From positions 28,432 to 92,431 of the forward strand of contig NZ_CAMBTS010000001.1 of the NCBI RefSeq assembly GCF_945870625.1: a stretch of 64,000 bases of DNA, given 5' to 3'. Below the pieces are notes generated by a model, which was given only the letters and a program-made list of their open reading frames with translations, was not told the origin of the DNA and searched no databases. This DNA comes from Novosphingobium sp. Chol11 (lineage in GTDB: Bacteria; Pseudomonadota; Alphaproteobacteria; Sphingomonadales; Sphingomonadaceae). This document shows positions 17,851 through 42,703 of the stretch, piece by piece (position 1 is the first letter of the stretch; each line of letters starts with the position of its first letter). The translations under genes and the position numbers were made by a program.

Positions 17851-18873
17851 TCAGTTGGCCGAGAGCGCGGGCGGCTGGGCGGCGCCGTTCGGCGCACCAT
17901 ACGTGAAATGGCTGATGATCCAGTCGCGCAGCATGTAGATCGCCGGATCGGCTAGATCTTCGGTATGCGTCTTGAGGTAATAGCCGAAGCCGTCGCCGGA
18001 GATGCGGTCAAACGGCATGACCAGCTCGCCCTTGGCGATCTCCTGCGCGAACATGTCGATATCCGCGAGCACGACGCCTGACGCGCTCATAGCATAGCGC
18101 ACCGCCGAAAATGCGGTGTCAAAGGCAAGGCCATCGTTCGTGTCGATCGCTAGGCGCTGCTGATCGGCATAGCTGCTCCACAGCAGCCCGCGCGGCTCGC
18201 CCTCCAGCTTGACATGGAGCAGCTCGTTATCCTGCAGGAACTGTTCGAGGCCCTTGCCTTTATGCGCGTCTGCCGTGGCGGGCGAGCAGAGCGGCGCAAC
18301 CCGCACCATCCAGAGCAGATCGGCGACCTTGTCGTCCACATTGGGCCGATCAAACACGATCGCCATATCGACATTGGCCCTGGGTTCGCCGGTCACGTTC
18401 GACGAGGTGACGTCTATGCGCACCTCGGGATGCTCTTTGTGAAAGTCGCGGATCAGCGGCAACGCGTTCTGGTAGAGCAGCGATGGGGGAATGTGCAGCC
18501 GCAGCGGTCGGCTTTCGAGATCCTTGTTGCGGATCGTGTTGATCGTCTGCTCCATCCGGTCGAGGCATTTGCCGATGACCGGGAGCAGGATCGCGCCCGC
18601 AGGGGTCAGCTTAAGGCCAGTCGGCCCACGCTCGAACAAAGGCTTGCCGACAAGATCTTCGAGGCTGCTGACATGGCGGCTCATCGCGCTTTGTGAGACC
18701 GTCAGGGCCTGCGCGCCCCCGGTAAAGCTCATGTGGCGGCCCACGGCCTCAAACGCGCGCAAGGCGTTGAGCGGCAGCCAGCGTCGATTGATGAGGCGGT
18801 CGGTGGCTATCTGAATTTCTCCCTCGCTCGCAGCAGATTGCCCGCCGCATTGATCTACGTCAATGCGGGTCAT
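17851..18873 (-). CDS. LysR family regulator (GcvA/AmpR-like)
   Basis: WLPLNALRAFEAVGRHMSFT.GA..L.VSQSAMSRHV..LE HTH. Start uncertain; the SD points to 18810 (see findings). Confidence 0.9.
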   Translation of the reverse strand: MTRIDVDQCGGQSAASEGEIQIATDRLINRRWLPLNALRAFEAVGRHMSFTGGAQALTVSQSAMSRHVSSLEDLVGKPLFERGPTGLKLTPAGAILLPVIGKCLDRMEQTINTIRNKDLESRPLRLHIPPSLLYQNALPLIRDFHKEHPEVRIDVTSSNVTGEPRANVDMAIVFDRPNVDDKVADLLWMVRVAPLCSPATADAHKGKGLEQFLQDNELLHVKLEGEPRGLLWSSYADQQRLAIDTNDGLAFDTAFSAVRYAMSASGVVLADIDMFAQEIAKGELVMPFDRISGDGFGYYLKTHTEDLADPAIYMLRDWIISHFTYGAPNGAAQPPALSAN

Positions 18874-18944
18874 TCTCGGTACGGCCTTGCCGAATTATAA
18901 GCAGATATAATATAGGCTTCCGCCCATGGTTATGGAACACGCTG

Positions 18945-19901
18945 ATGCAACTGCCTCCCGAATTCGATTTCCATGCGCTCGAAGTGTTCGTCCTGACTGT
19001 CGATCTGGGCGGGATGACCGCGAGCGCGCAGCAACTGCGCATCACCCAATCGGCGGTTTCGCAAACCATCGCGCGGCTTGAACAGGGGATCGGCACGGTG
19101 CTGTTCGACCGGGCGCTGCGGCCCTTGGGGCTCACGCCTGCGGGGCGCGCGCTTTATGAGCGGGCGACGCGCCTTCTGGCCAGCGCGCGCGCTGTGGTTG
19201 ACGAGGTGCGCGAAGGCGCCAACCAGCCGATCGACAAAGTCACCGTCGGCATGTCGGAAACGGCCGCGATCCTCCTCACTGCGCCGCTCCTTGTGCAGCT
19301 TGGGCCGAAAGTTGGGCGCTGGCGCGTGCGATCGGGAATTTCGCTTAGTCAACAGCAGGATTTCCTCGCGCGGCGCTGCGACATGCTCGTGACCGGCAGC
19401 AGCGCGCTCGAAAAGCACGAGGGGATCGAGCATCATGATGTGCTCGATGATCCGTTCCTGCTGGTGTTTCCTAAGGATTATCGCGGCTTGGCCGATGATA
19501 TCGAAGCCATTCAAGGCCTTCCGTTCGTGCGGTATTCGCTGGAGACCGGGATGGGACAGCGGATCGAAAGTCAGCTTCTGCGGATGCGGCTGAGGCTGCC
19601 CAATGTGATCGAGGTGGAAAGCATTCACCAGCAGCTCAACTCGGTAACGCACGGGATTGGCTGGAGCATTACTTCGCTGCTGTGCCTTGCCGCCATGCCC
19701 GAGGTCATCCCTGATCTGCGGGTCGAGCCCCTGCCGCGCGCACGCTTTTCCCGGCGGATACAGGTCGTGAGCCGCGCGGGTGAGCTGGGCGATCTGGCTG
19801 TGCGCACCGCAGCGCTGGCAGGCGAAGTGATCCGCGAGCACAGCCTGCCGCCCGTTCTCGAACAGCTGCCATGGGCTAAAGACCTGATTGCGCTGACCTG
19901 A
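18945..19901 (+). CDS. LysR family regulator
   Basis: ALEVFVLTVDLGGMTASAQQL.ITQSAVSQTIARLE..IG..LFDR HTH plus substrate-binding domain. Confidence 0.92.
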   Translation: MQLPPEFDFHALEVFVLTVDLGGMTASAQQLRITQSAVSQTIARLEQGIGTVLFDRALRPLGLTPAGRALYERATRLLASARAVVDEVREGANQPIDKVTVGMSETAAILLTAPLLVQLGPKVGRWRVRSGISLSQQQDFLARRCDMLVTGSSALEKHEGIEHHDVLDDPFLLVFPKDYRGLADDIEAIQGLPFVRYSLETGMGQRIESQLLRMRLRLPNVIEVESIHQQLNSVTHGIGWSITSLLCLAAMPEVIPDLRVEPLPRARFSRRIQVVSRAGELGDLAVRTAALAGEVIREHSLPPVLEQLPWAKDLIALT

Positions 19902-20051
19902 TCCGGCAGGCACCCAGGGCATTACCGAAGTGAATATTATACATTAATTTATTTCATGGGCTGAATGAGAGATCGAAAAGGGCTAAACTTATTGGCCATC
20001 GCGGGTCTGCCATCACAGACCCCGATTTCGTCATTTTGAGCGGGTGTAACT

Positions 20052-21179
20052 ATGAATCTCATGACATCCCCGGTTACGGTCAAGGACAAGGGCCTTGAGG
20101 TTGCGCTGCCCAGCGGCGAATTGGCCTATTTCAATCATTATTGGCTGCGCGACAATTGCTCGACCTCGTTCGATCCCGAAACGCGCGAGCGGGTGTTCGA
20201 TATCTTTCATCTCGCGCAGCCGCCCCATCCATCTTCCGCGCACGTCGCCAATGGCGCGCTGGAAATTGTCTGGTCGGGCGAAAATCACACCAGCCGCTAT
20301 CCGCTTGGCTGGCTGGAAAGCTACAGCAAGGGCGAACGCCGCGCTGATCCGGCCGAACTGAAGCGTGTCTCGTGGTATGGCGATCATTACCCGAAGATGG
20401 CCCGCTTTGCCCATGCCGACCTGATGGCTGATCGCCAGCTGGTGGCGCAGTGGCTGCGCGCCATGCTGGTCGAAGGCGTGTCGCTCGTCACCGAGATGCC
20501 CGACAGCGATCAGGCGTTGACCGATCTGGTGAAATTGATGGGGCAGGTCCGCCCCACGTTCTTCGGCGACTATTTCGATGTGCGCACGCATATCGCGCCG
20601 ACCAATCTCGCTTACACCGCCAAGGCGCTGGAGCTGCACACCGATGTGCCGGCCGAAGACCTCGCCCCCGGCGTGCAGTTCCTGCATTGCCGCGCCAACA
20701 GCGTTGAAGGCGGCGAAAACCTGTTCCTTGATGGGCTGGCGGTGGCCAATGATCTGCGCGAACAGTTTCCAGAAGACTTCAAGCTGCTCTCCGAAACTGC
20801 CGTGCCGTTCTACTTCGAGCACGACAATCAGGATGTCCGCGCCCGCCAGCGGGTGATCGAGCTTGACGAAAACGGCGATGTGTCAGGCGTAACCATCAGC
20901 CAGCATATGGCCGATGTGTTCGATCTGCCGCAGCACTTCATGGACCGTTATTACCCGGCGTTCTGCCGTTTCGGGCGGATGTTGCAGGCCGACAAATACC
21001 TCATGCGGTTCCGGATTGCGGCGGGCGAATGCATCGTGTTCGACAACCACCGCATCGTCCATGGCCGCTCGGCTTATTCGGCGACCAGTGGTGATCGCTA
21101 TCTGCGCGGCACTTATGCCGATCGCGGCGAGATGCGCAGCACGTATCGCGCGCTCACCAGCAAAGGCCGCTTCGCATGA
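20052..21179 (+). CDS. Fe(II)/2-oxoglutarate dioxygenase, gamma-butyrobetaine/trimethyllysine dioxygenase-like (TauD family)
   Basis: N-terminal WLRDNC domain; facial triad LHTD...FDNHRIVHGR; N.AYT..ALELHTD and LRGTY.D motifs of the BBOX/TMLD family. Confidence 0.88.
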   Translation: MNLMTSPVTVKDKGLEVALPSGELAYFNHYWLRDNCSTSFDPETRERVFDIFHLAQPPHPSSAHVANGALEIVWSGENHTSRYPLGWLESYSKGERRADPAELKRVSWYGDHYPKMARFAHADLMADRQLVAQWLRAMLVEGVSLVTEMPDSDQALTDLVKLMGQVRPTFFGDYFDVRTHIAPTNLAYTAKALELHTDVPAEDLAPGVQFLHCRANSVEGGENLFLDGLAVANDLREQFPEDFKLLSETAVPFYFEHDNQDVRARQRVIELDENGDVSGVTISQHMADVFDLPQHFMDRYYPAFCRFGRMLQADKYLMRFRIAAGECIVFDNHRIVHGRSAYSATSGDRYLRGTYADRGEMRSTYRALTSKGRFA

Positions 21180-21904
21180 GCGATCTTGACGGCGAAGCGC
21201 TGCACCAGCTTCGCGTCGATCTGGCGGCGGCCTTTCGGCTGACCGCACATTTTGGCTGGCATGAATCGGTGGGCAATCATTTCAGCGCGGCGGTCTCTGA
21301 CGATGGTCGGCGTTTTTTGCTGAACCGCAAGTGGCAGCACTTTGCCTCGATCCGTCCCGATGATCTGATGCTGCTCGATGCTGGCGATGCCGATGTGATG
21401 ACGCGTAGCGATGCACCCGATGCATCTGCATGGACCATCCACGGTGCGATCCATCGCGAATGTACGAGGGCGCGGGTGATCCTGCATTGCCATCCGCCTT
21501 ATACCACCGCGCTGGCGACTTTGCGCGATCCCTCACTCCTGCCGCTCGACAACAACACCGCGCGGTTCTTTAATCGCGTCGGCATGGATCTGGAGTTTGG
21601 CGGGATCGCCGACGAGGCTGCCGAAGGTGCCCGGCTTGCCGCCTCGCTGGGCAATTACAAAACGCTGATGATGGGCAACCACGGCCTGACTTGCATCGGC
21701 GACACGGTGGCCGAAGCGTTCGAGGATCTCTATTTCTTCGAGCGCGCGGCGCAGACACTGATGCTGGCCTACGCCTCGGGTAAGCCACTCAATGTGCTAT
21801 CTGACGAGATTGCCGAGAAAACCGCGCAAGGGTGGGACGACTACAAAGGCATGGCCTTTGCCCATTTCGATTATCTCAAATCGACGCTCGGCGCGCTGAA
21901 CTGA
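21176..21904 (+). CDS. Class II aldolase/adducin family protein
   Basis: LAAAFRL...FGWHES..NHFSA, IHGAIH, LHCHPPY, MGNHG metal-binding His motifs; ATGA overlap with the dioxygenase. Confidence 0.88.
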   Translation: MSDLDGEALHQLRVDLAAAFRLTAHFGWHESVGNHFSAAVSDDGRRFLLNRKWQHFASIRPDDLMLLDAGDADVMTRSDAPDASAWTIHGAIHRECTRARVILHCHPPYTTALATLRDPSLLPLDNNTARFFNRVGMDLEFGGIADEAAEGARLAASLGNYKTLMMGNHGLTCIGDTVAEAFEDLYFFERAAQTLMLAYASGKPLNVLSDEIAEKTAQGWDDYKGMAFAHFDYLKSTLGALN

Positions 21905-21909
21905 CGCGC

Positions 21910-22989
21910 ATGACCGGCATTCCTGCCACCATGACCGCCGTGCTCATGACCGGCAATGGCGGCTTCGACAAGCTGGATATCCGCAGCGATGTGGCCGTGC
22001 CGGTCCCGGGCCCGGGCGCTGTGCTGATCCGCGTGGGCGCGGCGGGGGTTAATAACACCGATATCAACACGCGCACTGCCTGGTATTCAAAGTCTGTCGT
22101 CGCCGCGACCGAGGCTGGCGGCAGCGATGGCTTCGCCGAGGCGCGGACCGAGGATTCGGGCTGGGCCGGAAATTTGCCGCAATTCCCGCGCATTCAGGGG
22201 ACCGATGCCTGCGGCCGGATCGTGGCGGCGGGGCCAGGGGTGGACCCCGCGCGGATCGGCGAGCGCGTGCTGGTCGAGCCAGTGTTTCGCGGGGCAAGCC
22301 GGTTTGAGGCAACCTATTTCGGCTCGGAAGTCGATGGCGCGTTTGCAGAGTTTGCGCGTGTGCCCGCGATCCATGCGCACCGGATCGAGTCGGCGCTCAG
22401 CGATGCCGAACTTGCCTCGTTTCCCTGCGCCTATTCGGCTGCGGAGAATATGCTGACCAGAGCCAGGCTGGCCGACGGTGAGCGCGTGCTGATCACCGGC
22501 GCTTCGGGCGGGGTAGGGTCGGCAGCAGTCCAACTGGCGCAGCGGCGGGGCTCCAGCATCGTTGCCTTAGCGAGCGCTGACAAAGCCGACGCTGTGCTCG
22601 CATTGGGCGCGGCGCAAGTCTTGCCGCGCGATGCCGATCTGGCAGCCATATTCGGGCCGGATCATTTCGACGTGGTGATCGACATCGTTGGCGGCGCAGG
22701 CTTTCCCGCGCTGTTCCAGGTCTTGAAGCGCGGCGGGCGCTATGCCGCAGCAGGGGCGATTTCCGGGCCGATTGTCGAACTCGACTTGCGCACGCTATAC
22801 CTTAAAGACCTCACTTTGCTGGGGTGCACGATCCTCGAACCAGAGGTATTTCCAAACCTCGTCGGCTATATAGAGCGCGGCGAGATCCACCCTCTGGTAT
22901 CCGCGACATGGCCATTGGCGCAGATTGTCGAGGCGCAGCGCGCCTTCCTGACCAAACAGCATGTCGGCAAAATCGTCCTCATCCCCTGA
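21910..22989 (+). CDS. MDR-family alcohol dehydrogenase / quinone oxidoreductase
   Basis: VLIRVGAAGVNNTDI, PRIQGTDACG, ITGASGGVGSAAVQLA, GKIVL motifs; no structural-Zn Cys cluster. Confidence 0.85.
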   Translation: MTGIPATMTAVLMTGNGGFDKLDIRSDVAVPVPGPGAVLIRVGAAGVNNTDINTRTAWYSKSVVAATEAGGSDGFAEARTEDSGWAGNLPQFPRIQGTDACGRIVAAGPGVDPARIGERVLVEPVFRGASRFEATYFGSEVDGAFAEFARVPAIHAHRIESALSDAELASFPCAYSAAENMLTRARLADGERVLITGASGGVGSAAVQLAQRRGSSIVALASADKADAVLALGAAQVLPRDADLAAIFGPDHFDVVIDIVGGAGFPALFQVLKRGGRYAAAGAISGPIVELDLRTLYLKDLTLLGCTILEPEVFPNLVGYIERGEIHPLVSATWPLAQIVEAQRAFLTKQHVGKIVLIP

Positions 22990-23005
22990 AAGAAAGCTCC
23001 TTCTC

Positions 23006-23959
23006 ATGAAAATCGGATTTATCGGCCTTGGCAACGTTGGCGGCAAGCTGGCCGGGAGCCTGATCCGCAACGGCCATGATGTCACCGTGCGCGATCTCGA
23101 TGCCGGGCTGGTGGCCGAATATGTCGCGCGCGGCGCGGCCTCCGCCGATAGCCCGCGGGCGTTGGGCGAAGCGGTGGATGTGATCATCACCTGCCTGCCG
23201 TCCCCCGCCGCGAGCGCCGCCGTAGCCGAGGGCGAGGACGGGTTCTTGCAGGTGATGCGCCCAGGGCAGGTGTGGATGGAGATGAGCACGACCGACTATG
23301 CTGAAGTGCTGCGGCTCGGACCGCTGGTCGAAGCGCGCGGCGGCCTGTTCATGGAATGCCCGGTTTCGGGCGGGTGCCACCGTGCTGACACCGGCAACAT
23401 CTCGATCTTCGCCGCCGGCCCGCGCGAAGGGTTCGAGCGGGTGCTTCCCGTACTCACCACTTTGGGCCGCCGCGTGCTGCACACCGGCGATTGGGGCACC
23501 GCCTCGCAGCTCAAAGTCATGACCAATTTCCTGTGCACCGCGCACCTCGTCGCGCTCGCCGAGGCGCTGACCGTGTGCAAGGCGGTGGGTTTGGACATGA
23601 ACACGACTTACGAGGCGATCCGCATTTCGTCGGGCAACAGCTTTGTTCACGAAACGGAATCGCAGGTGATCTTGAACGGTAGCCGCGACATCAACTTCAC
23701 GATGGACCTCGTCTCCAAGGACGTCGGCCTGTTCGACAAGATCGCGCAGGAAACCGGCGTGCCAGTCGAAATGTCGCCGCTGATCGTGCGCCTGTTCAAG
23801 GAGGGCGAGGCCTCCTACGGCTCGCGCGAAAACTCGCCCAACATCATCCGCCGCTACGAAGAGCCAGTCGGCGTTAAAGTGCTGGGCACGGGCTTTCCCG
23901 AGCAGATGGTGGACGACGAGCCCGAAGAGCCAGGCTACGAAGTGGTGCCGCGCCGGTAA
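23006..23959 (+). CDS. NAD(P)-dependent oxidoreductase, 3-hydroxyisobutyrate dehydrogenase family
   Basis: KIGFIGLGNVG Rossmann motif, CPVSGG, catalytic Lys in LKVMTN, FTMDLV.KD. Confidence 0.87.
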   Translation: MKIGFIGLGNVGGKLAGSLIRNGHDVTVRDLDAGLVAEYVARGAASADSPRALGEAVDVIITCLPSPAASAAVAEGEDGFLQVMRPGQVWMEMSTTDYAEVLRLGPLVEARGGLFMECPVSGGCHRADTGNISIFAAGPREGFERVLPVLTTLGRRVLHTGDWGTASQLKVMTNFLCTAHLVALAEALTVCKAVGLDMNTTYEAIRISSGNSFVHETESQVILNGSRDINFTMDLVSKDVGLFDKIAQETGVPVEMSPLIVRLFKEGEASYGSRENSPNIIRRYEEPVGVKVLGTGFPEQMVDDEPEEPGYEVVPRR

Positions 23960-25731: not shown

Positions 25732-25739
25732 TTTGAGCC

Positions 25740-29681: not shown

Positions 29682-30117
29682 ACCTTGAAGTCCTGTTCTG
29701 TTACGGTACCTGTTTCAGGCCTTGCGGCATGAACCTCCCGGTCCGGCGAATAACATTCGCTGTTCCCTTGCTTGAACGGCAGGCCGCAATAGTCAAGCGC
29801 GCGGTGGCAAAGGCGAAGCGATTGCGGAACGCTTGCTGCGATGCATTAGCAGCCACTTAGCGCGGCAATAAGCCCACTCTATGCAACTGCGGAGGGGTAC
29901 TGCCCATTCGCAGCGCCATGGCGCAAATGGCCGATTTGCGCGACTTACGCCGAAAATTCAGCGAAACCCGCCTGCGCGGCTAACATCCAAATGCGCACCA
30001 TAAGCAACTTTTGTGCTCTCAAATTGTTATTTTGCCATGGGTTCATGCTGAAATCCGATTGGAAGCGCACCGCCCGTTGGTTCACCTCCGCGATCAGGAT
30101 TGCATTGGACCAACGAC

Positions 30118-32590: not shown

Positions 32591-32591
32591 A

Positions 32592-36453: not shown

Positions 36454-36466
36454 GTCTGGCGCTGAG

Positions 36467-36730
36467 ATGTATCTGATCGATTGCCCCCATTGCGGCCCGC
36501 GCGCGCAGCTTGAATTCACCTATGAGCGCACGATGGATTCCATCGCGCCTGCAGGTGCGGACCCGCAAGAGGCGATGCGCGTGCTCTATAGCCGCGCCAA
36601 TCCGATGGGCGCGGATGACGAGGTTTGGCGGCATACTTACGGCTGCCGTGCGTGGCTGGTGCTGACGCGCAACCGCATGACGCACAGCATCGATGCGGTG
36701 CGCGCTGTTGGGCCGGAGACTCTGGCATGA
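36467..36730 (+). CDS. soxD: Sarcosine oxidase subunit delta
   Basis: I.CPHCGPR...EF.Y ... R.NP.G...E.W.H..GC..W....RN Zn-binding pattern. Confidence 0.88.
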   Translation: MYLIDCPHCGPRAQLEFTYERTMDSIAPAGADPQEAMRVLYSRANPMGADDEVWRHTYGCRAWLVLTRNRMTHSIDAVRAVGPETLA

Positions 36731-39507
36731 GCGCTGGTCCATCACGCATTTCCCCCGGCGGCGAGACTGTTACATTCACCTTCGACGCGGTGACCTACTG
36801 CGCGCGCGCAGGCGATACCCTTGCCGCCGCGCTGCTGGCCAATGGCGTTGGGCTTGTCGCCCGCAGCTTCAAGTATCACCGCCCGCGCGGGATCATGGCG
36901 GCCGGGATCGAGGAGCCGAACGCGCTGGTAACAGTGGGCGAGGGCGGGCGCGCCGAACCCAATACGCGCGCGACCGATCTGTTTGTGTATGAAGGCATGG
37001 TCGCGAAAAGCCAGAACGCCTGGCCCAGCCTGTCGCTCGATCTGGGCGCGGCGTTAGGGCTGGCTTCGCCTGCGCTGCCTGCGGGCTTTTATTACAAGAC
37101 GTTCTTTGGCCCGGCCAAACGCTGGATGCGTTATGAGTGGCTCATCCGCCGCGCCGCTGGCCTCGGCAACGCGCCGACCTTGCCGGACCCTGACAAGTTC
37201 GCGCAGCGCGCCGCGTTTTGCGATGTGTTGGTGGTCGGCGCTGGCCCCGCCGGGATCAAGGCTGCACTGGAAGCGGCGGAGAGCGGCGCGCAGGTCATGC
37301 TGGTGGAGCAGGACGCGGTCTTGGGCGGTTCGCTCCACCGCGATCCCGATCCGGAATGCGACGCGGCGTGGATCGCAGCATCGGCAGCGCGCATTGCCGC
37401 GCTGGGCGGACGCATTTTGCTGCGCACGACCGCTTCGGGCTATTGGGACCACAATTTTCTGACGCTGACCCAGCGTCTGGCCGAACCCGGCGCGGTGCCG
37501 GCGCATGGCTTTGCACAGCAACTGTGGCATTTGCGCGCGGGCCGGGTGGTGCTGGCGACGGGCGTGATCGAGCGCCCGATCCCATTTACCAACAACGACC
37601 GGCCGGGCGTGATGCTGGCAGGTGCAGTGCGCACTTATGTGCGGCGCTACGGCGTGCTGCCGGGCCGGCGCGTGGTCATCGCCGCCAACAACGATGACGC
37701 TTATCGCACAGCGGCGGCGCTGATCGAAGCGGGCGCGGAAGTGCTCGCCATCCTGGATTCGCGCTCCTCGTCGACCGCCGATGCGCCTGATGGCGTGCCG
37801 GTTCTTTACGACGCGAGGCCGACCCACGTTAGCGGCACCGCGCATCGCCTGAGCCGCGTCACGGCGCTTGTCCGCGAGCGCGAGCAAAGCTGGACTGCTG
37901 ATTTGCTGGCGGTTTCGGGCGGGTTCGTGCCGGTGGCGCACCTTCACATGCAGGCGGGCGGCAAGCTTGACTGGAACGAGGCGGCGCAGGCGTTTGTGCC
38001 CGGCGTAACGCATCAGAACTGCGTCACGATTGGCGCAGCCGCTGATCCCGTTCCGGCCACACCTGCGGCGCCAGCTGGCCATCCCAAGAAAAGCTTTGTC
38101 GATTTCCAGAATGACGTCAGCCTCGCCGATATCGATCTGGCCTGGCAGGAAGGCTATCGTTCGGTCGAACACCTCAAGCGCTATACCACGCTGGGCATGG
38201 CGACCGATCAGGGCAAGACCAGCAACATGGTCGCGCTCTCCCGGCTCGCCGAGCGCGGTCATGTGTCGGTGCCGCAGGCGGGGCTGACGACGTTCCGCCC
38301 GCCGTTCACGCCGGTGACTATGGGGCTGTTCGCCGGTGCCGGTGCGCGCAATGCGGCGGCGCATGAGCGGCGGCTGGCGCTGTATGATTTGCATGAGGCG
38401 CGGGGGCCGGTGTGGCAGCCGCTTGGCTATTGGTTCCGACCGCGCGCCTATACGCTGGGCAGCGAGACGCTGGCCGAGGCGGCGCTGCGCGAGGCGCGCG
38501 GCGTGCGCACCAGCGTTGGCCTCACCGATGTTTCCACGCTGGCCAAGTTCGAAGTCAGCGGCCCGGATGCGGCGGCGCTGCTCGAAATTGTTTGCGCCAC
38601 GACCGTCTCAAAGCTGGCGGCGGGGCGCGGACGCTACACGTTCATGCTGCGCGAAGACGGCATGGTGTTTGACGATGGCACCGTTTGGCGGCTGGCCGAA
38701 GATCGCTACCTGCTGACCAGTTCGACCGGCGGCGCCGACCGGATGGCCAGCCACCTCTCGTTTGTGCGCAATGTGCTGCGGCCTGAATTGCGGGTGTCGG
38801 TGGTCAATGTGCAGGAGCATCATGCCGGAATTGCGTTCGCCGGACCGAAAGCCAGCACGCTGCTGGCCGGGCTGATCGGAGAAGCGCCGCCGCGCCATAT
38901 GTCGCTGGCCCGCGCGGTGATCGCCGGGGTGCCGGTGTTGCTTCTAGCGGCGAGCTACAGCGGCGAGCGCGCATTCGAAATTTATGCCGAGGCAACACAG
39001 GCGCAGCCGGTGTGGCGGGCGCTCGCCGCCGCTGCCGAGGCCGAGGGTGGCGCGCCTTATGGCATGGACGCGATGGAATTGCTGCGCATCGAGAAGGGCC
39101 ATGTCGTCGTCGGCGGCGAAGTCGATGGGCGCACCACGCCGCGCGATCTGGGCCTCGACAAGATGCTGAACAAGGCGGGCGGCTTCATCGGCGCGAATGG
39201 ACTGCAACGGCCTGCGCTGAGCGAGCCGGGGCGGATCGAGCTGGTCGGGCTTGAAGCATTGGGTGGCGAGATTGCCGAGGGGGCGATGCTAATCGGCGCG
39301 GGCGGCGGAGCACCGCAGGGCCATGTAACGGCGGCGGGACGGCGCGTGATCGAAGGCGGCGCTATCGCGCTGGCGCATCTGGCCGGGGGCCATGCGCGCC
39401 GCGGCGAGGAGCTGACCGCGGCTTCGCCTACCCGCGGCATTACCACTCGCGTTCGCGTGGTCGCGCCGCATTTCTATGATCCGGCCGGAGAGCGCTATCG
39501 TGACTGA
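36727..39507 (+). CDS. soxA: Sarcosine oxidase subunit alpha family
   Basis: GDTLAAALLANG, RSFKYHRPRG, AGFYYKTF, EHLKRYTTLGMATDQGKTSN, TFRPP, DVSTLAKF, RIEKGH motifs. Confidence 0.9.
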   Translation: MSAGPSRISPGGETVTFTFDAVTYCARAGDTLAAALLANGVGLVARSFKYHRPRGIMAAGIEEPNALVTVGEGGRAEPNTRATDLFVYEGMVAKSQNAWPSLSLDLGAALGLASPALPAGFYYKTFFGPAKRWMRYEWLIRRAAGLGNAPTLPDPDKFAQRAAFCDVLVVGAGPAGIKAALEAAESGAQVMLVEQDAVLGGSLHRDPDPECDAAWIAASAARIAALGGRILLRTTASGYWDHNFLTLTQRLAEPGAVPAHGFAQQLWHLRAGRVVLATGVIERPIPFTNNDRPGVMLAGAVRTYVRRYGVLPGRRVVIAANNDDAYRTAAALIEAGAEVLAILDSRSSSTADAPDGVPVLYDARPTHVSGTAHRLSRVTALVREREQSWTADLLAVSGGFVPVAHLHMQAGGKLDWNEAAQAFVPGVTHQNCVTIGAAADPVPATPAAPAGHPKKSFVDFQNDVSLADIDLAWQEGYRSVEHLKRYTTLGMATDQGKTSNMVALSRLAERGHVSVPQAGLTTFRPPFTPVTMGLFAGAGARNAAAHERRLALYDLHEARGPVWQPLGYWFRPRAYTLGSETLAEAALREARGVRTSVGLTDVSTLAKFEVSGPDAAALLEIVCATTVSKLAAGRGRYTFMLREDGMVFDDGTVWRLAEDRYLLTSSTGGADRMASHLSFVRNVLRPELRVSVVNVQEHHAGIAFAGPKASTLLAGLIGEAPPRHMSLARAVIAGVPVLLLAASYSGERAFEIYAEATQAQPVWRALAAAAEAEGGAPYGMDAMELLRIEKGHVVVGGEVDGRTTPRDLGLDKMLNKAGGFIGANGLQRPALSEPGRIELVGLEALGGEIAEGAMLIGAGGGAPQGHVTAAGRRVIEGGAIALAHLAGGHARRGEELTAASPTRGITTRVRVVAPHFYDPAGERYRD

Positions 39508-39994
39508 GCTGACGATCACCGCGCTGCCGCCTGCGCCGCTGAACGCGGCCGAAATCTGGAGCAATCCTGCGCAAGTTTCGGTCAGGTGTCAGGCGGCTCT
39601 GGGCTTCGCGCTGCCCGGCATGGGGCAATCGGCGGGGAGCGAGGCGCTGAAATTGCTCCGCTATGAGCCGACGGTGTGGCTGGCCGAAGGCGACGTAGCG
39701 CCGCTCGCGGCGGTTTTGGCCGAAGACGGCGCAATCACAGCCATCGGCGGCGGCATCGTGCGGGTGCGCATCGCAGGGGCGGGATGGCGCGCGCTGTTGA
39801 TGCAAGGCGGGGTGTTTGAAGCGGAAGCCGCCGCCTTCGCACCGGGGCACTGTGCGGCAACGGTAATCGATCATGTCGCGGTGCGTCTGTTTGTGGAAAA
39901 CGAAGATGCCTGTCTTGCTTATGTGCCATCAAGCTATGCCGCTGCGCTGATGCACTTCTGGCATGATGTGCTTCCGCTGGTTGGCGCAGATTGA
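39500..39994 (+). CDS. soxG: Sarcosine oxidase subunit gamma-like (divergent)
   Basis: Position after soxA; P..WL, F..G.CA.T....V and V..SYA..L..W pattern; GTG overlaps the soxA end. Confidence 0.65.
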   Translation: MTELTITALPPAPLNAAEIWSNPAQVSVRCQAALGFALPGMGQSAGSEALKLLRYEPTVWLAEGDVAPLAAVLAEDGAITAIGGGIVRVRIAGAGWRALLMQGGVFEAEAAAFAPGHCAATVIDHVAVRLFVENEDACLAYVPSSYAAALMHFWHDVLPLVGAD

Positions 39995-40000: not shown

Positions 40001-40022
40001 CGCCCCTGCCTGCGCAGGGGCG
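40001..40022. terminator. GC-rich hairpin between convergent operons
   Basis: CGCCCCTGC-ctgc-GCAGGGGCG perfect 9-bp stem; no U-tract, so a terminator role is uncertain. Confidence 0.4.
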
Positions 40023-40033
40023 TGGCGGGCATT

Positions 40034-41314
40034 TCAGGCCCGTGCCTGCATCGGATCGGCGGCTGACAGGATAACGCGGGCTTCGATCCCGCCGCCAGGC
40101 TGTCGTCGTTCGCGGACGCGCAAGGCCAGCGTAGCGGCAAAAGCGACGGCGCTCATGCTGGCGAACATCACCAGCATGGCATCGTACCCTTGCGGATTCT
40201 GAGGCCCGGCGGCAAACGCATCGTTGAGCCCGCCCGCCGCAAAATTTGCCGCTGCCAGCCCAAGGCTCTGCAGCATGTTGATCAGGCCGTAGGCGGTGCC
40301 GATGCGGCTTTTTTCCGCCAGCATCGCGGTGGCAGGCCAGATCACTGCGGGAATGACCGAAAAACTGATCCCCATCAGCACTGTGGAAACCCAAAGCCCC
40401 CAATCGGTGAGCGCGAGCACCATGAAGGTTAGCGGCATGAGCGCCGCGCCTATGGTCAGCAGGCTTGCGCGCAGGCCCACCTTGTCGGCGATCAGTCCGA
40501 AAACCGGGGTCGCAAAGATCGCGGCTGCAAAGACCCAACTGTTGGCAATGCCGGCCTCCGCCAGCGTGATCCCTTTGACGTCCTGAAAAAACTGGATCGA
40601 AAAGGTCGAGCGGAATGGAAAGAAAACGCTGGCAAACAGCACGTTGAGCCACAGGATGTACCAGAACGAGCGGCTGAAGGTGAACAGATCGCTGAACACG
40701 AACCGCTCCCCCGGCGTGCCGACCACGCGCAGATGGGGCAAGCGGCGATCAAGCAGATAGAGCGCCAGCGATGTGATGACGCCGATCGCAGTGAGACCGG
40801 CGGCCAGCCACAGCGGCGGTTGCCAGCCGATGGCATAGAGCGGGGCGGCCCAGCTTGTCGAAGTGTCGGCAGCATAAGAACCAACGCGCGCCAGCGAAAA
40901 GAACAGGGCAACCGCCAGTGCGCCGCCGCCGCCATGAAACCACTGTGCCAGAACCACGAGGAGCGCGATGTAAAGTGTTTCGTTGCCGAGCCCGAACAGC
41001 AGCCGTCCGACGATCATCACCATATAAGGTTCGCCAATCGCGGTCAGCACCGCGCCTAGCGTGCACAAGATCGCCGCGCCGAGCGCCGCCCGCGCCGCGC
41101 CGATCCGGTCGATCAGCACGCCGCCGATAATCGCCAGCGGAATGTTTGGCAGGCTGAACACCGCGCCCAGCGTGCCAATCTGGCTCTGGCTGAAGCCGCG
41201 CTGATCGCGCAGCAGATCGGCAATCGGCGCGATCGAATCATAGGTATAGTAACTGCCCATGATCGTCAGCGCCGCAAGCAGCAGCACGACCCATCTCACC
41301 TGCGTTTCGGCCAT
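40034..41314 (-). CDS. MFS transporter, MFSD1-like
   Basis: GSY.TYD, S.PN....GG.LIDR, GR..FG.G.E.L, WF.G, ARVGS, FPF, WP, GTAYG....Q..GLA motifs; GAAGGGGA SD before ATG 41314. Confidence 0.85.
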   Translation of the reverse strand: MAETQVRWVVLLLAALTIMGSYYTYDSIAPIADLLRDQRGFSQSQIGTLGAVFSLPNIPLAIIGGVLIDRIGAARAALGAAILCTLGAVLTAIGEPYMVMIVGRLLFGLGNETLYIALLVVLAQWFHGGGGALAVALFFSLARVGSYAADTSTSWAAPLYAIGWQPPLWLAAGLTAIGVITSLALYLLDRRLPHLRVVGTPGERFVFSDLFTFSRSFWYILWLNVLFASVFFPFRSTFSIQFFQDVKGITLAEAGIANSWVFAAAIFATPVFGLIADKVGLRASLLTIGAALMPLTFMVLALTDWGLWVSTVLMGISFSVIPAVIWPATAMLAEKSRIGTAYGLINMLQSLGLAAANFAAGGLNDAFAAGPQNPQGYDAMLVMFASMSAVAFAATLALRVRERRQPGGGIEARVILSAADPMQARA

Positions 41315-41338
41315 CTGCTCCCCTTCGCGATGCGGCAC

Positions 41339-42703
41339 TTAGTGCAGGCGCGCACCTTGCCGGCGCAGTTCGGCCTGCACCGCGCCGACATCGATATCGG
41401 CAAAACTGCGCCCCGTCTTCACCGCAATCGCGGCGGCGGTTCCCGCACCTTGGCCCGATACCGCGCAGCACATCATGTTACGCACCGCAGCATGGCTGAC
41501 CTTGTCGCCGCCGATCACGCGGCCCGCCACGATCAGGTTGTCGATGCCTTTGGGCAGCAGCGCGCGGTAGGGCACATGGAAGTAGCGCCCGGTGGTCGGC
41601 AGGATGAGCAAGCCGTAGCCATCGATGAATTCCGGGAAAATGCCGATTGAATCCTCGAAGCGGGCTTGCTGGCGCACGTCGTCGGCGGACATGTTGTAGG
41701 CAGCATCGATCTTGCGGGTGTCGCGGATGCCCAGGGTCATCCCGAAATTGCGGATCTTGGCAGTTTCGCAGCCCGGCATGAAACCGCGCAGGGCCTTGAT
41801 CGCCAACATCGCATCGCGCCGCCCGCGCATCTCGCCCTCGGTCAGCGCGGCGGGATCGGTGCCATCCAGCGTGAAGTGCACCAGATTGAGATACGTGAGA
41901 TCGCCTTGATCCGAAACCGTGCCCCAAGTGCCGGCGATGGTCGCCAGGTTGCGCGGCAACAGCCCGGCATCGAGCGCCTGCTGAAATGGCTTGCGCAGGA
42001 ACGGGGAGAACAGCGCGTCCTCCTTGCCATCGGTGGTGATGTCCCATTCGCCATTGCCCGCCCAATCGCCATACGTCTGCGGATCGGCTTTGACCGCTTC
42101 GATAAAGCGCGGCTTGTTCACCCCGCTCATCGAGAACATCACCGAGACCGACATCATTTCGTCCACCGGATGTTTGAATGTCGGCGCGCCGCCGCGAAAC
42201 GCGAGGTCGGCGTCGCCGGTCGCATCGACGATCCGTTTGGCCAGAATTGCCTCGCGGCCCGCCTTGCTCTCCACGATCACTCCCCGCATCACGGTGCCTT
42301 CCATGATCGGGGCAACGACCAAGCGGTGGAGCATGGGGATCACGCCCGCTTCCTCGACCAGCACATCGGCCACATATTTGAAGGCTTCGGCATCGAGCGA
42401 ATGGCTGATCGATTGCGGTTCGGGCATGGCGGCGTCCATCGCGATGGCGCGATCCTCGAATTCGCGGCCGATGCCTTCGCTATCGATGGTGGCAGGGTGG
42501 CGATACCATGCAAAGCCCTCCACGCCGACTTGCGTGATGTTGCCGCCAAAGCAGCCATAGCGTTCGACCAGCGTGGTTTTGACGCCCGCGCGGGCGCTGG
42601 CCAGCGCAGCGGCGAGGCCGCCGGGGCCAGAGCCGACCACCAGCACGTCGGTTTCATGGATCACGTCGATCCGGCGGGCGGGTTCTTCGATGCTGTGGCT
42701 CAT
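41339..42703 (-). CDS. FAD-dependent oxidoreductase (FAD_oxidored/GidA-like family)
   Basis: DVLVVGSGPGG.AAA.A.AR.G, VDATGDADLA, G.RDTR.I, VPYRAL.P, NL.VAGR, GQGAG.AAA motifs. Confidence 0.85.
   Translation of the reverse strand: MSHSIEEPARRIDVIHETDVLVVGSGPGGLAAALASARAGVKTTLVERYGCFGGNITQVGVEGFAWYRHPATIDSEGIGREFEDRAIAMDAAMPEPQSISHSLDAEAFKYVADVLVEEAGVIPMLHRLVVAPIMEGTVMRGVIVESKAGREAILAKRIVDATGDADLAFRGGAPTFKHPVDEMMSVSVMFSMSGVNKPRFIEAVKADPQTYGDWAGNGEWDITTDGKEDALFSPFLRKPFQQALDAGLLPRNLATIAGTWGTVSDQGDLTYLNLVHFTLDGTDPAALTEGEMRGRRDAMLAIKALRGFMPGCETAKIRNFGMTLGIRDTRKIDAAYNMSADDVRQQARFEDSIGIFPEFIDGYGLLILPTTGRYFHVPYRALLPKGIDNLIVAGRVIGGDKVSHAAVRNMMCCAVSGQGAGTAAAIAVKTGRSFADIDVGAVQAELRRQGARLH

What the first reader, a model, noticed from the sequence alone, without database searches (positions are those of the whole stretch)
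17851..42703. 25-kb, four-operon catabolic region for an unidentified N-methylated or quaternary amine
Seen: four tightly coupled operons (20052-23959 +, 29681-24103 -, 30118-39994 +, 42703-40034 -) encoding a BBOX-like dioxygenase, aldolase-fold protein, two dehydrogenases, GMC oxidase, enolase-type enzyme, ALDH, two MFS transporters, a Rieske demethylase-type oxygenase, PLP lyase, HcnBC-like pair, soxBDAG and an unassigned flavoprotein. Known: these families act on betaines and N-methyl amino acids (GbcA, Stc2, BBOX, BetA, Sox). The set does not match the choline-betaine, carnitine (no carnitine dehydrogenase or BKACE) or stachydrine (no HpbA or proline racemase) clusters as I know them. No TonB-dependent receptor or folate genes are in the window. 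Inference: a pathway for a different substrate, still unassigned.
Basis: partly seen in the sequence, partly recalled or inferred. Interest (0 to 1): 0.65.

Follow-up and report, generated by a model that had tools for sequence, protein, structure and literature searches.

The report
Composite betaine-breakdown gene island in sphingomonad
A lake-water sphingomonad has gathered several gene modules around a conserved operon that strips three methyl groups from an unidentified betaine-type amino acid and then splits it with a vitamin-B6 enzyme; it matches no pathway I found described, and the substrate (best guess: the head group of algal betaine lipids) is untested.

Summary
One correction: 18945-19901(+) is a second LysR regulator.

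The same genome carries a canonical choline-to-glycine cluster on another contig, with BetA, BetB and SoxA above their curated cut-offs. The window's genes therefore form a separate, paralogous system.

The conserved heart is a LysR1 regulator next to Rieske-PLP-HcnB-HcnC-SoxBDAG. It appears in about 50 of 80 related loci, with a 41-bp operator-like element that has one strong copy in the window.

In one sample of 151 Sphingomonadales genomes:
- The core occurs in 5 genomes.
- The enolase-type gene of operon 2 and the flavoprotein of operon 4 occur in the same 4, all core-positive, often at other loci.
- The BBOX-like gene occurs only in this genome.

Parts of all four operons and an exported esterase recur around the core in other arrangements in other families.

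Verdict: a real, partly co-conserved quaternary-amine island with an unassigned substrate. My best guess is homoserine betaine or the DGTS head group. Operon 1 is the least firmly linked. I found no matching pathway in the literature searched.

The parts
16541..17842 (+). Exported serine carboxylesterase (cutinase/PETase/PAF-AH-like), translationally coupled to glpK
   Evidence: Pfam PETase and PAF-AH_p_II. It has a signal peptide, and Ser203/Asp286/His317 are invariant in 14 orthologues. The AF2 model (pLDDT 78) best matches cutinases, PETases and a feruloyl esterase. It lies beside the core in 13 of 80 loci, on either side, and in 4 of 4 other core-positive Sphingomonadales genomes. ATGA overlap with the glpK stop.
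17851..18873 (-). LysR1, a GcvA-type LysR regulator and the conserved regulator of the core operon
   Evidence: Pfam HTH_1 and LysR_substrate; GcvA subfamily 178 bits, below the 288 cut-off. It lies divergently next to the Rieske gene in 55 related loci. Here an 11-kb block separates the two.
18945..19901 (+). LysR2, a second LysR regulator upstream of operon 1
   Evidence: NCBIfam LysR hits. Homologues of 49-55% identity lie next to the hydrolase or core in G484, G523, L031, L032 and L037.
20052..21179 (+). Fe(II)/2-oxoglutarate dioxygenase of the trimethylammonium-recognising clade (TmpA/BBOX/TMLH-like)
   Evidence: Pfam TauD and GBBH-like_N. Scores: TmpA 294 bits (cut-off 400), BBOX 285 (cut-off 414). 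Best solved structure is TmpA 6npb, 194 bits. Present only in this genome of 151 Sphingomonadales and in 6 of 401 Alphaproteobacteria.
21176..21904 (+). Class II aldolase-fold protein, 4-nt overlap with the dioxygenase gene
   Evidence: Pfam Aldolase_II; NCBIfam PRK07490 346 bits, above the 260 cut-off. It pairs with the dioxygenase in L040, L106/L114, L107 and L111.
21832..22989 (+). MDR-family (zinc-ADH/quinone reductase-like) dehydrogenase; start uncertain
   Evidence: Pfam ADH_N and ADH_zinc_N. Homologues of 54-55% identity lie next to LysR1 and the core in Caulobacteraceae loci L058 and L059.
22961..23959 (+). Beta-hydroxyacid dehydrogenase (HIBADH family; not a true HIBADH)
   Evidence: Pfam NAD_binding_2 and NAD_binding_11; best NCBIfam hits (L-threonate DH 164 bits, tartronate-semialdehyde reductase 157) are all below cut-off. 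It tracks with the operon-2 module: 85-88% identity in L040, G484 and G523, and it neighbours the enolase-type gene in many Alphaproteobacteria.
24103..25914 (-). GMC flavoprotein alcohol dehydrogenase/oxidase (likely true start near 25743)
   Evidence: Pfam GMC_oxred_N and GMC_oxred_C; BetA equivalog 458 bits, below the 732 cut-off. The genome's true BetA is on contig C49.
25740..26927 (-). Enolase-superfamily enzyme of an uncharacterised subgroup
   Evidence: Pfam MR_MLE_N and MR_MLE_C. Scores 428-604 bits against function-unknown structures 4e5t, 4e4u, 3t4w, 3rcy and 4j3z. Gly replaces the first metal Asp (FGTHGQ) in all 31 orthologues checked. Within 151 Sphingomonadales it occurs only in core-positive genomes.
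26924..28381 (-). NAD(P)-dependent aldehyde dehydrogenase
   Evidence: Pfam Aldedh, 528 bits; BADH 420 bits, below the 669 cut-off. It is kept in the order MFS-ALDH-Enol-GMC in G484, G523 and L001-L007.
28344..29681 (-). MFS transporter whose best family match is the D-galactonate transporter model (TIGR00893)
   Evidence: Pfam MFS_1; TIGR00893 125 bits, below cut-off. It is kept with operon 2 in relatives.
30026..30066 (+). Conserved operator-like element upstream of the Rieske gene (presumed LysR1 box)
   Evidence: A weight matrix built from 43 distinct sites in related loci gives one strong hit in the 64-kb window, 29.7 bits. The next unrelated hit scores 5.8 bits.
30118..31332 (+). Rieske non-haem iron oxygenase of the GbcA/Stc2 betaine N-demethylase family; no reductase gene in the region
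   Evidence: Pfam Rieske and Ring_hydroxyl_A; GbcA 426 bits, below the 670 cut-off. Solved structures: 3n0q 377 bits, Stc2 3vca 371, CntA only 129. A second paralogue sits in the canonical cluster on C49.
31319..32590 (+). Cys/Met-metabolism PLP enzyme (PRK07049 group), presumed gamma- or beta-lyase acting after demethylation
   Evidence: Pfam Cys_Met_Meta_PP, 324 bits; PRK07049 513 bits, above the 504 cut-off. The PLP Lys, Asp, Tyr and carboxylate Arg are kept, and the MGL-type Cys is Gly. Nearest structures, 5ijg and 7swh, have no assigned function.
32556..35188 (+). HcnB/OoxA-like and HcnC/OoxB-like subunits of a heteromeric amine dehydrogenase (32556-34052 and 33953-35188)
   Evidence: Pfam Pyr_redox_2, SO_alpha_A3 and BFD-like 2Fe-2S for one subunit, DAO for the other. 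The beta-like subunit is closest to 1y56_B, 92 bits. No HcnA-like small subunit gene.
35152..39994 (+). Divergent heterotetrameric sarcosine-oxidase-family genes soxB, soxD, soxA and soxG
   Evidence: SoxB 628 bits (cut-off 529, passed). SoxA 984 (cut-off 1164), SoxD 74 (cut-off 116) and SoxG 45 (cut-off 144) all fall short. The C49 paralogue SoxA scores 1365.
40034..41338 (-). Second MFS transporter
   Evidence: Pfam MFS_1. A 77%-identical homologue follows soxG in L007.
41339..42730 (-). PF12831 FAD-dependent oxidoreductase of unknown function
   Evidence: Pfam FAD_oxidored, 289 bits. No informative solved relative. It follows soxG in L001, L002 and L004 at 87-89% identity. It has the same phyletic pattern as the enolase-type gene. 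In G484 and G523 it lies downstream of genes that match this window's GMC and ALDH at 35-41% identity.
42796..45156 (+). Transketolase/PDH-E1-like ThDP enzyme; association uncertain
   Evidence: Pfam Transketolase_N and Transket_pyr; E. coli PDH E1 132 bits. It lies next to LysR1 in 8 Sphingomonas loci. However, 80%-identical homologues elsewhere lie in PEP-mutase/ICL-ALDH-E1-DUF1838 operons with no amine genes.

Best explanation
The region is a composite catabolic island for a quaternary ammonium compound that is not glycine betaine.

Core. LysR1 controls the eight-gene operon 3.
- Inferred from family chemistry: a GbcA/Stc2-type Rieske monooxygenase removes the first methyl group from an N-alpha-trimethyl amino acid.
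- The HcnB/HcnC-like flavoprotein removes the second methyl group.
- The divergent SoxBDAG removes the third, passing it to folate.
- Only then can the Cys/Met-family PLP enzyme bind the free alpha-amino group and cleave the carbon skeleton by gamma- or beta-elimination to a 2-oxo acid and ammonia.

Accessory parts.
- An exported serine esterase, co-transcribed here with glycerol kinase, acts first, outside the cytoplasm, on an esterified form of the substrate.
- Operon 2 (MFS, ALDH, enolase-type enzyme, GMC) with the HIBADH-like dehydrogenase oxidises an alcohol to a carboxylate. It then acts on the proton next to that carboxylate, giving elimination or epimerisation.
- Operon 4 adds a second transporter and a flavoprotein of unknown role.
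- The BBOX-like dioxygenase and aldolase-fold pair under LysR2 is a separately mobile add-on. It probably funnels a related trimethylammonium compound into the island.

Best-guess substrate (speculative): diacylglyceryl-trimethylhomoserine (DGTS) from algae.
1. The esterase removes the acyl chains.
2. The glyceryl ether is broken. Either GMC and ALDH oxidise it to a glycerate ether and the enolase-type enzyme performs beta-elimination, or the PLP enzyme performs gamma-elimination after demethylation.
3. Homoserine betaine is demethylated three times.
4. Homoserine, or O-glyceryl-homoserine, goes to 2-oxobutyrate and ammonia.

Shown: the gene families, the conservation, the co-occurrence, and the separate canonical pathway. 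Inferred: every reaction and the substrate.
For: Gene families and their sub-threshold scores against characterised equivalogs.

A complete canonical cluster on contig C49 of the same genome: TBDR, BetB, BetA, BCCT, a DMGDH-like gene, Rieske, SoxB and SoxA.

Core synteny in about 50 of 80 loci from Sphingomonadales, Caulobacteraceae and others. In Sphingorhabdus-type loci, C1-disposal genes lie beside it: FdsGBA, FdhD, PurU and class III ADH.

One strong conserved operator copy at 30026-30066.

The PLP enzyme keeps the PLP-Lys, Asp, Tyr and carboxylate-Arg.

Phyletic pattern in one sample of 151 Sphingomonadales genomes:
- Core in 5 genomes.
- Enolase-type gene in 4 and PF12831 flavoprotein in the same 4, all core-positive. 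The chance of one such 4-genome nesting is about 2e-7 by genome and 4e-5 by genus.
- In G484, G523 and G535 these genes lie at other loci.

Recurrent co-localisation in different gene orders in L001-L007, L040, L058, L059 and L078. In G484, operon 2 lies among PurU and two DMGDH-like genes.

The esterase is exported, has an intact catalytic triad, lies next to the core in several genera, and is coupled to glpK here.

A CATGGGC half-site occurs in three other promoter regions: 3 observed against 0.28 expected.

I found no described homoserine-betaine or DGTS catabolic route. Homoserine betaine is reported as an environmental dissolved metabolite (PMC11166142, listed).
Against: - No substrate, activity or expression data exist. 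No RNA runs hold the region.
- No reductase partner for the Rieske oxygenase is encoded in the region.
- The enolase-type/HIBADH pair occurs in 12% of Alphaproteobacteria, mostly without the core and without amine genes. Its chemistry may have nothing to do with betaines.
- The BBOX-like pair is usually free-standing and is absent from the other core-positive genomes.
- The strong LysR1 operator precedes only operon 3.
- The glpK-esterase coupling is seen only in this genus.
- The MFS of operon 2 best matches an acid-sugar (D-galactonate) transporter model rather than a betaine transporter.
- Homoserine could enter central metabolism without a dedicated lyase.
- Other agents' identical guess for the core (earlier notes) is not independent evidence.
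Confidence: 0.5

Rival explanations
1. Chance or ecological mosaic. The four operons serve different substrates: operon 1 a gamma-butyrobetaine- or phosphonate-type amine, operon 2 a polyol or acid sugar, operon 3 a betaine, operon 4 something else. They sit together only because such accessory genes collect in one flexible region.
For: The enolase-type/HIBADH pair is common without the core and in non-amine contexts. The BBOX-like/aldolase pair is a free-standing LysR unit elsewhere. In G484, G523 and G535, operons 2 and 4 lie at other loci than the core. There are separate regulators, and only one strong LysR1 operator. The operon-2 MFS resembles acid-sugar transporters.
Against: Operons 2 and 4 have identical, rare phyletic patterns nested in the core's pattern in 151 genomes. 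The same families re-associate around the core in at least four gene orders across families. In G484, operon 2 sits among PurU and DMGDH-like genes, and the operon-4 flavoprotein follows genes that resemble betB and betA.
Confidence: 0.22
2. A second, redundant choline/glycine betaine route. GMC and ALDH make glycine betaine from choline. Rieske, HcnBC and SoxBDAG take it to glycine. The PLP and enolase-type enzymes do side jobs.
For: The families match each step of the known route. The Rieske enzyme scores 426 bits against GbcA, slightly more than the C49 paralogue at 405.
Against: The genome already has a full canonical set, with BetA, BetB and SoxA above their cut-offs. The window's GMC, ALDH and SoxA, D and G are below theirs. 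A Cys/Met-family PLP enzyme has no role with glycine, yet it is the second gene of the operon in essentially all relatives. This route would not need the enolase-type enzyme or the esterase.
Confidence: 0.1
3. A proline-betaine or hydroxyproline-betaine-type route. The enolase-superfamily enzyme acts as a betaine epimerase, the Rieske enzyme as demethylase, the HcnBC-like enzyme as a D-amino-acid or D-hydroxyproline dehydrogenase, and ALDH as a semialdehyde dehydrogenase.
For: The Rieske enzyme is as close to Stc2 (371 bits) as to any solved relative. From my own knowledge, heteromeric HcnBC-like enzymes include D-hydroxyproline dehydrogenase. An enolase-superfamily member and an ALDH are present.
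Against: There is no StcD/HpbA-type N-methylproline demethylase, no pyrroline-hydroxy-carboxylate deaminase and no proline racemase in the region. The enolase-type enzyme's nearest relatives are a function-unknown group and acid-sugar dehydratases. The structures I recall for HpbD are not among the 60 best. The PLP lyase and SoxBDAG are left unexplained.
Confidence: 0.07
4. A trimethyllysine, gamma-butyrobetaine or carnitine-type route. The dioxygenase hydroxylates, the aldolase-fold enzyme cleaves or decarboxylates, ALDH, HIBADH and GMC oxidise the products, and the demethylases finish the job.
For: The dioxygenase belongs to the TmpA/BBOX/TMLH clade. An Arctic SAR11 genomic island combines BBOX, a class II aldolase, HIBADH, ADH, ALDH and choline dehydrogenase with carnitine dehydrogenase and BKACE (PMC12421898).
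Against: There is no carnitine dehydrogenase or BKACE here. The dioxygenase pair is absent from the other core-positive Sphingomonadales genomes in the sample. GbcA/Stc2-type Rieske enzymes and a Cys/Met PLP enzyme point to an alpha-amino-acid betaine, not an omega-trimethylammonium acid.
Confidence: 0.08

Closest known systems
Glycine betaine catabolism: GbcAB (or BmoAB), then DgcAB or DMGDH, then SoxBDAG (Pseudomonas, Chromohalobacter)
   Same: Three successive N-demethylations. The first is by a Rieske oxygenase of the same family and the last by a heterotetrameric sarcosine-oxidase-type enzyme. LysR/GcvA-type control. C1-disposal genes nearby in relatives.
   Different: The Rieske enzyme is below the GbcA cut-off and no GbcB reductase gene is present. 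The middle step is encoded by an HcnB/HcnC-like pair, not DgcAB or DMGDH. A Cys/Met PLP enzyme is built into the operon. The Sox subunits are divergent. The genome has the canonical pathway elsewhere.
Stachydrine and hydroxyproline-betaine catabolism (Stc2-4/StcD in Sinorhizobium; HpbA-D in Paracoccus and Pelagibaca)
   Same: A Rieske betaine demethylase about as similar as GbcA. An enolase-superfamily member and an ALDH in the neighbourhood. The substrate is an amino-acid betaine rather than glycine betaine.
   Different: No StcD/HpbA flavoenzyme, no reductase, and none of the genes downstream of hydroxyproline. The enolase-type enzyme belongs to another, uncharacterised subgroup that lacks the first metal ligand.
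Choline oxidation BetA/BetB, and sphingomonad polyethylene-glycol breakdown (GMC dehydrogenase, aldehyde dehydrogenase, then ether cleavage; the latter recalled from memory)
   Same: Operon 2 pairs a GMC alcohol dehydrogenase with an ALDH to turn an alcohol into a carboxylate, next to a transporter.
   Different: Both enzymes fall well below the BetA and BetB cut-offs. An enolase-superfamily enzyme sits between them. The substrate is unknown.
TmpA/TmpB trimethyl-aminoethylphosphonate route and BBOX/TMLH of carnitine biosynthesis
   Same: The operon-1 dioxygenase is in the same trimethylammonium-recognising clade. TmpA is the best solved relative.
   Different: It scores below every equivalog cut-off. 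No HD-domain TmpB is present. Its partner is a class II aldolase-fold protein instead.
Arctic SAR11 genomic island (PMC12421898)
   Same: It combines BBOX, a class II aldolase, HIBADH, ADH, ALDH and choline-dehydrogenase-type genes with betaine transport.
   Different: That island has carnitine dehydrogenase, BKACE and an ABC transporter. The paper's passages I read do not list a Rieske, PLP, HcnBC or Sox gene. Its function is likewise inferred only.

Membership tests
Glycine betaine monooxygenase GbcA (NCBIfam NF058607) | Score at or above the curated equivalog cut-off of 670 bits | tested here: not met
   425.7 bits. The paralogue on contig C49 scores 405 bits.
Glycine betaine monooxygenase GbcAB | Adjacent GbcB-type ferredoxin-NAD(P)H reductase gene | tested here: not met
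   None of the genes from 16541 to 45156 has an FNR-type or plant-type ferredoxin reductase architecture.
Heterotetrameric sarcosine oxidase SoxBDAG | All four subunits above the TIGR01372-01375 cut-offs | tested here: inconclusive
   SoxB passes: 628 bits against a cut-off of 529. SoxA (984 against 1164), SoxD (74 against 116) and SoxG (45 against 144) do not. Gene order and domain make-up are as in the family.
Choline dehydrogenase BetA and betaine-aldehyde dehydrogenase BetB | Scores above TIGR01810 (732 bits) and TIGR01804 (669 bits) | tested here: not met
   458 and 420 bits. The C49 genes score 807 and 683 and pass.
Gamma-butyrobetaine dioxygenase, TMLH and TmpA | Score above an equivalog cut-off (414.75, 268.3 or 400 bits) | tested here: not met
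   285.5, 175.7 and 294.3 bits. The best solved relative is TmpA, 194 bits.
Carnitine catabolism (CDH plus BKACE) | [quoted passage not shown] | tested here: not met
   No such Pfam or NCBIfam hit among the region's genes.
Stachydrine/hydroxyproline betaine pathway | StcD/HpbA-type N-methylproline demethylase and an HpbD-type betaine epimerase | tested here: not met
   No OYE/FMN-type demethylase in the region. The enolase-type enzyme's best relatives are function-unknown structures and acid-sugar dehydratases. The identity of the HpbD structures is recalled from memory.
Cys/Met-metabolism PLP enzymes (fold type I, gamma family) | PLP-binding Lys, the Asp that binds the pyridine N, the stacking Tyr, and the Arg that binds the alpha-carboxylate | tested here: met
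   The alignment to Citrobacter MGL shows SLTKY (Lys), VVDNT (Asp), IYGG (Tyr) and MRLSVGLE (Arg). PRK07049 scores 513 bits, above the 504 cut-off.
Methionine gamma-lyase | Equivalog score, and the active-site Cys next to the stacking Tyr (residue role recalled from memory) | tested here: not met
   TIGR01328 scores 325 bits, below the 550 cut-off. The position holds Gly.
Enolase superfamily acid-sugar dehydratases (GalD/ManD type) | Three acidic metal ligands, and an equivalog score | tested here: not met
   Gly replaces the first ligand (FGTHGQ) in all 31 orthologues. Galactonate dehydratase scores 246 bits, below the 311 cut-off. The fold and the two Glu ligands are kept.
HcnABC / opine oxidase / archaeal PDH1-type heteromeric amine dehydrogenases | An alpha-like (Pyr_redox_2 plus SO_alpha_A3) and a beta-like (DAO) subunit, and in three-subunit members a small 2Fe-2S subunit | tested here: inconclusive
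   The alpha-like and beta-like genes are present, and the beta-like one is closest to 1y56_B. There is no room for a small-subunit gene. A BFD-like 2Fe-2S signature lies inside the alpha-like protein.

The most novel reading that the evidence does not exclude
The island encodes a complete, undescribed bacterial route for mineralising the algal betaine lipid DGTS:
1. An exported esterase removes the acyl chains.
2. GMC and ALDH oxidise the glyceryl end.
3. A metal-site-variant enolase-superfamily enzyme breaks the ether by beta-elimination.
4. Three different demethylases convert homoserine betaine to homoserine.
5. A new Cys/Met-family lyase yields 2-oxobutyrate and ammonia.
Probability: 0.2. 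Interest if true: 0.85.

Novelty: new variant of a known kind. Interest (0 to 1): 0.62.

Why it matters
Betaines and betaine lipids are large pools of carbon and nitrogen in lakes and oceans. I found no description of how bacteria break down homoserine betaine or DGTS.

This window adds to the already noted eight-gene operon a set of co-conserved partner genes: an exported esterase, an alcohol-to-acid oxidation module with an unusual enolase-superfamily enzyme, and a PF12831 flavoprotein with its own transporter. These partners narrow the possible substrates. They also give function-unknown families a testable context, including five solved but unassigned enolase-type structures and two PLP enzyme structures. 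Cultured strains carry the same genes, so the question is directly testable.

Tried and rejected
- Promoter and terminator scans gave no more sites than shuffled sequence.
- No RNA sequencing run holds the region, so co-induction could not be tested.
- Searches for the PDB codes of the enolase-type relatives found no paper.
- Searches for homoserine betaine or DGTS catabolism found no pathway.
- The transketolase/E1-like gene was considered as a 2-oxobutyrate-handling step. It was set aside because 80%-identical homologues lie in unrelated PEP-mutase/ICL-ALDH operons.
- The long minus-strand ORF 18930-19922 was rejected as a gene: it has no family hit, and the plus strand encodes a LysR.
- The PF12831 flavoprotein has no informative solved relative.
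- A gapless weight-matrix scan found no second strong LysR1 box. Only a weak shared half-site was seen.
- I could not test for DGTS synthesis genes or a GbcB-type reductase elsewhere in the genome.

Full report
**What is there.**

- Operon 1 (+): a TauD/GBBH-like dioxygenase (20052-21179), a class II aldolase-fold protein (21176-21904, 4-nt overlap), an MDR dehydrogenase and a HIBADH-family dehydrogenase.
- Operon 2 (-): MFS, ALDH, an enolase-superfamily protein and a GMC flavoprotein.
- Operon 3 (+): a GbcA/Stc2-type Rieske oxygenase, a Cys/Met-family PLP enzyme, an HcnB/HcnC-like pair and soxBDAG.
- Operon 4 (-): a PF12831 flavoprotein and a second MFS.

There are two corrections. The long minus-strand ORF 18930-19922 has no family hit, and the plus strand there (18945-19901) encodes a second LysR regulator. 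A cutinase/PETase-like hydrolase lies just upstream at 16541-17842. Its ATG overlaps the stop codon of glpK, and it turned out to belong to the conserved set.

Logan contigs from four lake-water metagenomes cover the operon junctions at even depth, so the arrangement is not an assembly artefact.

**It is not the canonical pathway.**
None of the candidate betaine enzymes reaches the curated cut-off of its characterised equivalog:

| Enzyme | Score (bits) | Cut-off (bits) |
|---|---|---|
| GbcA | 426 | 670 |
| BetA | 458 | 732 |
| BADH | 420 | 669 |
| BBOX | 285 | 415 |
| TmpA | 294 | 400 |
| SoxA | 984 | 1164 |

The same genome has a full choline-to-glycine cluster on contig C49. It holds a TonB-dependent receptor, BetB (772 bits), BetA (807), a BCCT permease, a DMGDH-like DAO-GcvT fusion, a second GbcA-like Rieske (405), SoxB (694) and SoxA (1365). 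The window's genes are therefore a paralogous, separate system.

**The conserved core.**
Eighty loci encoding Rieske relatives (52-77% identity) were fetched. Most come from freshwater Sphingomonadales, Caulobacteraceae and Acetobacteraceae.

A protein-by-locus matrix shows LysR1 next to Rieske-PLP-HcnB-HcnC-SoxB-D-A-G wherever the contigs allow, in about 50 loci. In most relatives LysR1 lies divergently right next to the Rieske gene. In the window, LysR2, operon 1 and operon 2 (about 11 kb) lie between them.

A 41-bp element (consensus TTGACATAGGGCTATGCGAAAATGCGATT) is conserved between LysR1 and the Rieske gene. A weight matrix built from 43 distinct sites gives one strong hit in the whole window, at 30026-30066 (29.7 bits; the next unrelated hit scores 5.8). 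Sphingorhabdus-type loci carry formate dehydrogenase, FdhD, MobA, PurU and class III ADH genes beside the core, as expected for a pathway that releases formaldehyde and methylene-folate. In this genome those genes lie on other contigs.

**Are the four operons co-conserved?**
One fixed sample of 151 Sphingomonadales genomes was searched with one marker per module.

| Marker | Genomes with a match |
|---|---|
| PLP enzyme (core) | G000, G526, G484, G523, G535 |
| Enolase-type gene (operon 2) | G000, G484, G523, G535 (88-90% identity) |
| PF12831 flavoprotein (operon 4) | the same four (79-80% identity) |
| BBOX-like gene (operon 1) | G000 only |
| Esterase at 45% identity or more | all five core-positive genomes, plus two others |

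For one marker, the chance that all four of its genomes fall inside the five core-positive genomes is about 2e-7. Counted by genus (3 of 54) it is about 4e-5.

The linkage does not depend on adjacency. In G484 operon 2 is 42 kb from the core and the flavoprotein is on another contig. In G523 and G535 both are on other contigs.

In G484 the operon-2 unit reads TBDR, TPR-sulfotransferase, MFS, ALDH, Enol, GMC, then a LysR, then ALDH2-HIBADH. PurU and two DMGDH-like genes flank it. There the flavoprotein follows genes that match this window's GMC and ALDH at 35-41% identity and may be betA and betB. A serine dehydratase gene lies nearby.

Other loci rebuild the association in other gene orders:

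- L040 (a Novosphingobium MAG): ALDH-Enol-GMC, HIBADH and the BBOX-like/aldolase pair, directly beside LysR1 and the core.
- L058 and L059 (Caulobacteraceae): ALDH-Enol-GMC, ALDH2-HIBADH and the MDR beside LysR1.
- L078: ALDH2-HIBADH and the esterase.
- L001-L007: operon 2 divergent from the core, and the flavoprotein or second MFS after soxG.

**What weakens a single-pathway reading.**

- At class level the enolase-type gene occurs in 49 of 401 Alphaproteobacteria. It is usually next to a HIBADH-like gene and sometimes next to GMC and ALDH. The core is mostly absent, and the three contexts annotated hold no amine genes.
- The BBOX-like gene has orthologues in only 6 of 401 genomes. Its usual context is a bare LysR-dioxygenase-(aldolase) unit.
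- Only operon 3 has the strong LysR1 box.
- A CATGGGC half-site does occur in the LysR1/LysR2, operon 1 and operon 4 promoter regions (3 observed against 0.28 expected), and CATGGGT lies inside the core operator. This is only suggestive.
- The transketolase/E1-like gene after operon 4 is beside LysR1 in eight Sphingomonas loci. Elsewhere its 80%-identical homologues sit in unrelated operons. I do not count it as part of the pathway.

**Mechanism.**
From the established chemistry of the families (my knowledge):

- GbcA/Stc2-type Rieske enzymes demethylate quaternary N-alpha-trimethyl or dimethyl amino acids.
- DAO-type heteromeric flavoenzymes oxidise tertiary or secondary amines. Their relatives include HcnBC, opine oxidase and PDH1; the closest solved chain here is 1y56_B.
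- SoxBDAG oxidises N-methyl amino acids with folate.
- A PLP enzyme cannot bind a substrate until the alpha-amine is primary. The PLP step must therefore follow three demethylations.

The PLP protein keeps the catalytic Lys, Asp, Tyr and the carboxylate-binding Arg. It lacks the methionine-gamma-lyase Cys. Its nearest structures, 5ijg and 7swh, have no assigned function.

An alpha-amino acid with a leaving group on the gamma (or beta) carbon is thus the likely demethylated product. Homoserine betaine, free or as the ether-linked head group of DGTS, fits this logic.

It also gives roles to the accessory parts:

- The esterase. All orthologues have signal peptides, the Ser-Asp-His triad is invariant, and the fold is cutinase-like. 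In this genus it is co-transcribed with glycerol kinase.
- GMC, ALDH and the enolase-type enzyme. They could oxidise the glyceryl end to a glycerate ether, then remove the alpha-proton and eliminate the ether.

All of this is inference. Nothing in the data names the substrate. Other agents of this scan reached the same guess for the core operon in other genomes, which is not independent support.

**The enolase-type enzyme.**
It belongs to a subgroup with five solved, unassigned structures, against which it scores 428-604 bits. In this subgroup Gly replaces the first metal-binding Asp in all 31 orthologues examined. Its chemistry may therefore depart from ordinary acid-sugar dehydration.

**Literature.**
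Full-text searches found no catabolic route for homoserine betaine or DGTS, and no paper on the related structures.

One paper describes an Arctic SAR11 island that combines BBOX, a class II aldolase, HIBADH, ADH, ALDH and choline-dehydrogenase-type genes with carnitine dehydrogenase and BKACE (PMC12421898). The operon 1 and 2 family set therefore recurs in quaternary-amine contexts far from sphingomonads.

**Verdict.**
This is a real quaternary-amine catabolic island, distinct from the characterised choline, carnitine and stachydrine routes. A widely conserved core and co-conserved accessory modules make it up. Operon 1's dioxygenase pair is the least firmly attached part, and the substrate is still unassigned.

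I rate it a new variant of a known kind, with moderate to high interest. Cultured carriers make it directly testable.

Noticed in passing
window 16541-16544: The glpK stop codon overlaps the start codon of the exported esterase (ATGA). Glycerol kinase and the esterase are therefore probably co-translated. The same neighbourhood (esterase-glpK-glpD) occurs in the congeneric genome G526.
   Followed up: partly
window 25740-26927: The enolase-superfamily protein has Gly in place of the first metal-binding Asp (FGTHGQ) and Asn/Ala in place of the dyad Asp. FGTHGQ is invariant in 31 orthologues of 53-90% identity. Five related solved structures, which score 428-604 bits, have no assigned function.
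   Followed up: partly
genome contig C49 (locus L089 1-19788): A complete canonical cluster lies in the same genome: TonB receptor, BetB, BetA, BCCT permease, a DMGDH-like gene, a GbcA-like Rieske, SoxB and SoxA. A third SoxB paralogue lies on C76 near PurU.
   Followed up: yes
genome contig C1:17638-22398 (6-10 kb before the window start): A TonB-dependent receptor and a TPR-sulfotransferase-domain protein lie here. They are homologous to a pair that lies next to the core or operon 2 in at least 17 related loci and in G484. The role of the sulfotransferase-like protein is unknown.
   Followed up: partly
window 18930-19922 (-): A 330-codon open frame antisense to the LysR2 gene has no family hit. 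It is most likely a high-GC artefact.
   Followed up: yes
window 42796-45156: The 786-aa transketolase/PDH-E1-like protein has about 80%-identical homologues in Novosphingobium and Brevundimonas. There it sits in a conserved operon: unknown gene, PEP-mutase/ICL-family gene, ALDH, E1-like gene, DUF1838. That operon's function is also unknown.
   Followed up: partly
window 10641-11768: A type III polyketide synthase (chalcone/stilbene synthase-like) gene lies between an MFS efflux gene and the glp genes.
   Followed up: no
window 18874-18944, 19902-20051, 42704-42795: The heptamer CATGGGC occurs in three of the four promoter-bearing intergenic regions (0.28 expected). The longer form CATGGG[CT][GT][GC]AA occurs only twice in the 64 kb, both times beside LysR2. 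This may be a LysR half-site.
   Followed up: partly
loci L144 and L147 (genomes G484, G523): The PF12831 flavoprotein orthologue (79-80% identity) lies directly downstream of genes that match this window's GMC and ALDH at 35-41% identity, which may be betA and betB. In G484 an L-serine dehydratase and a POT-family transporter gene lie nearby. This hints at a role in choline or betaine metabolism for this unassigned family.
   Followed up: partly
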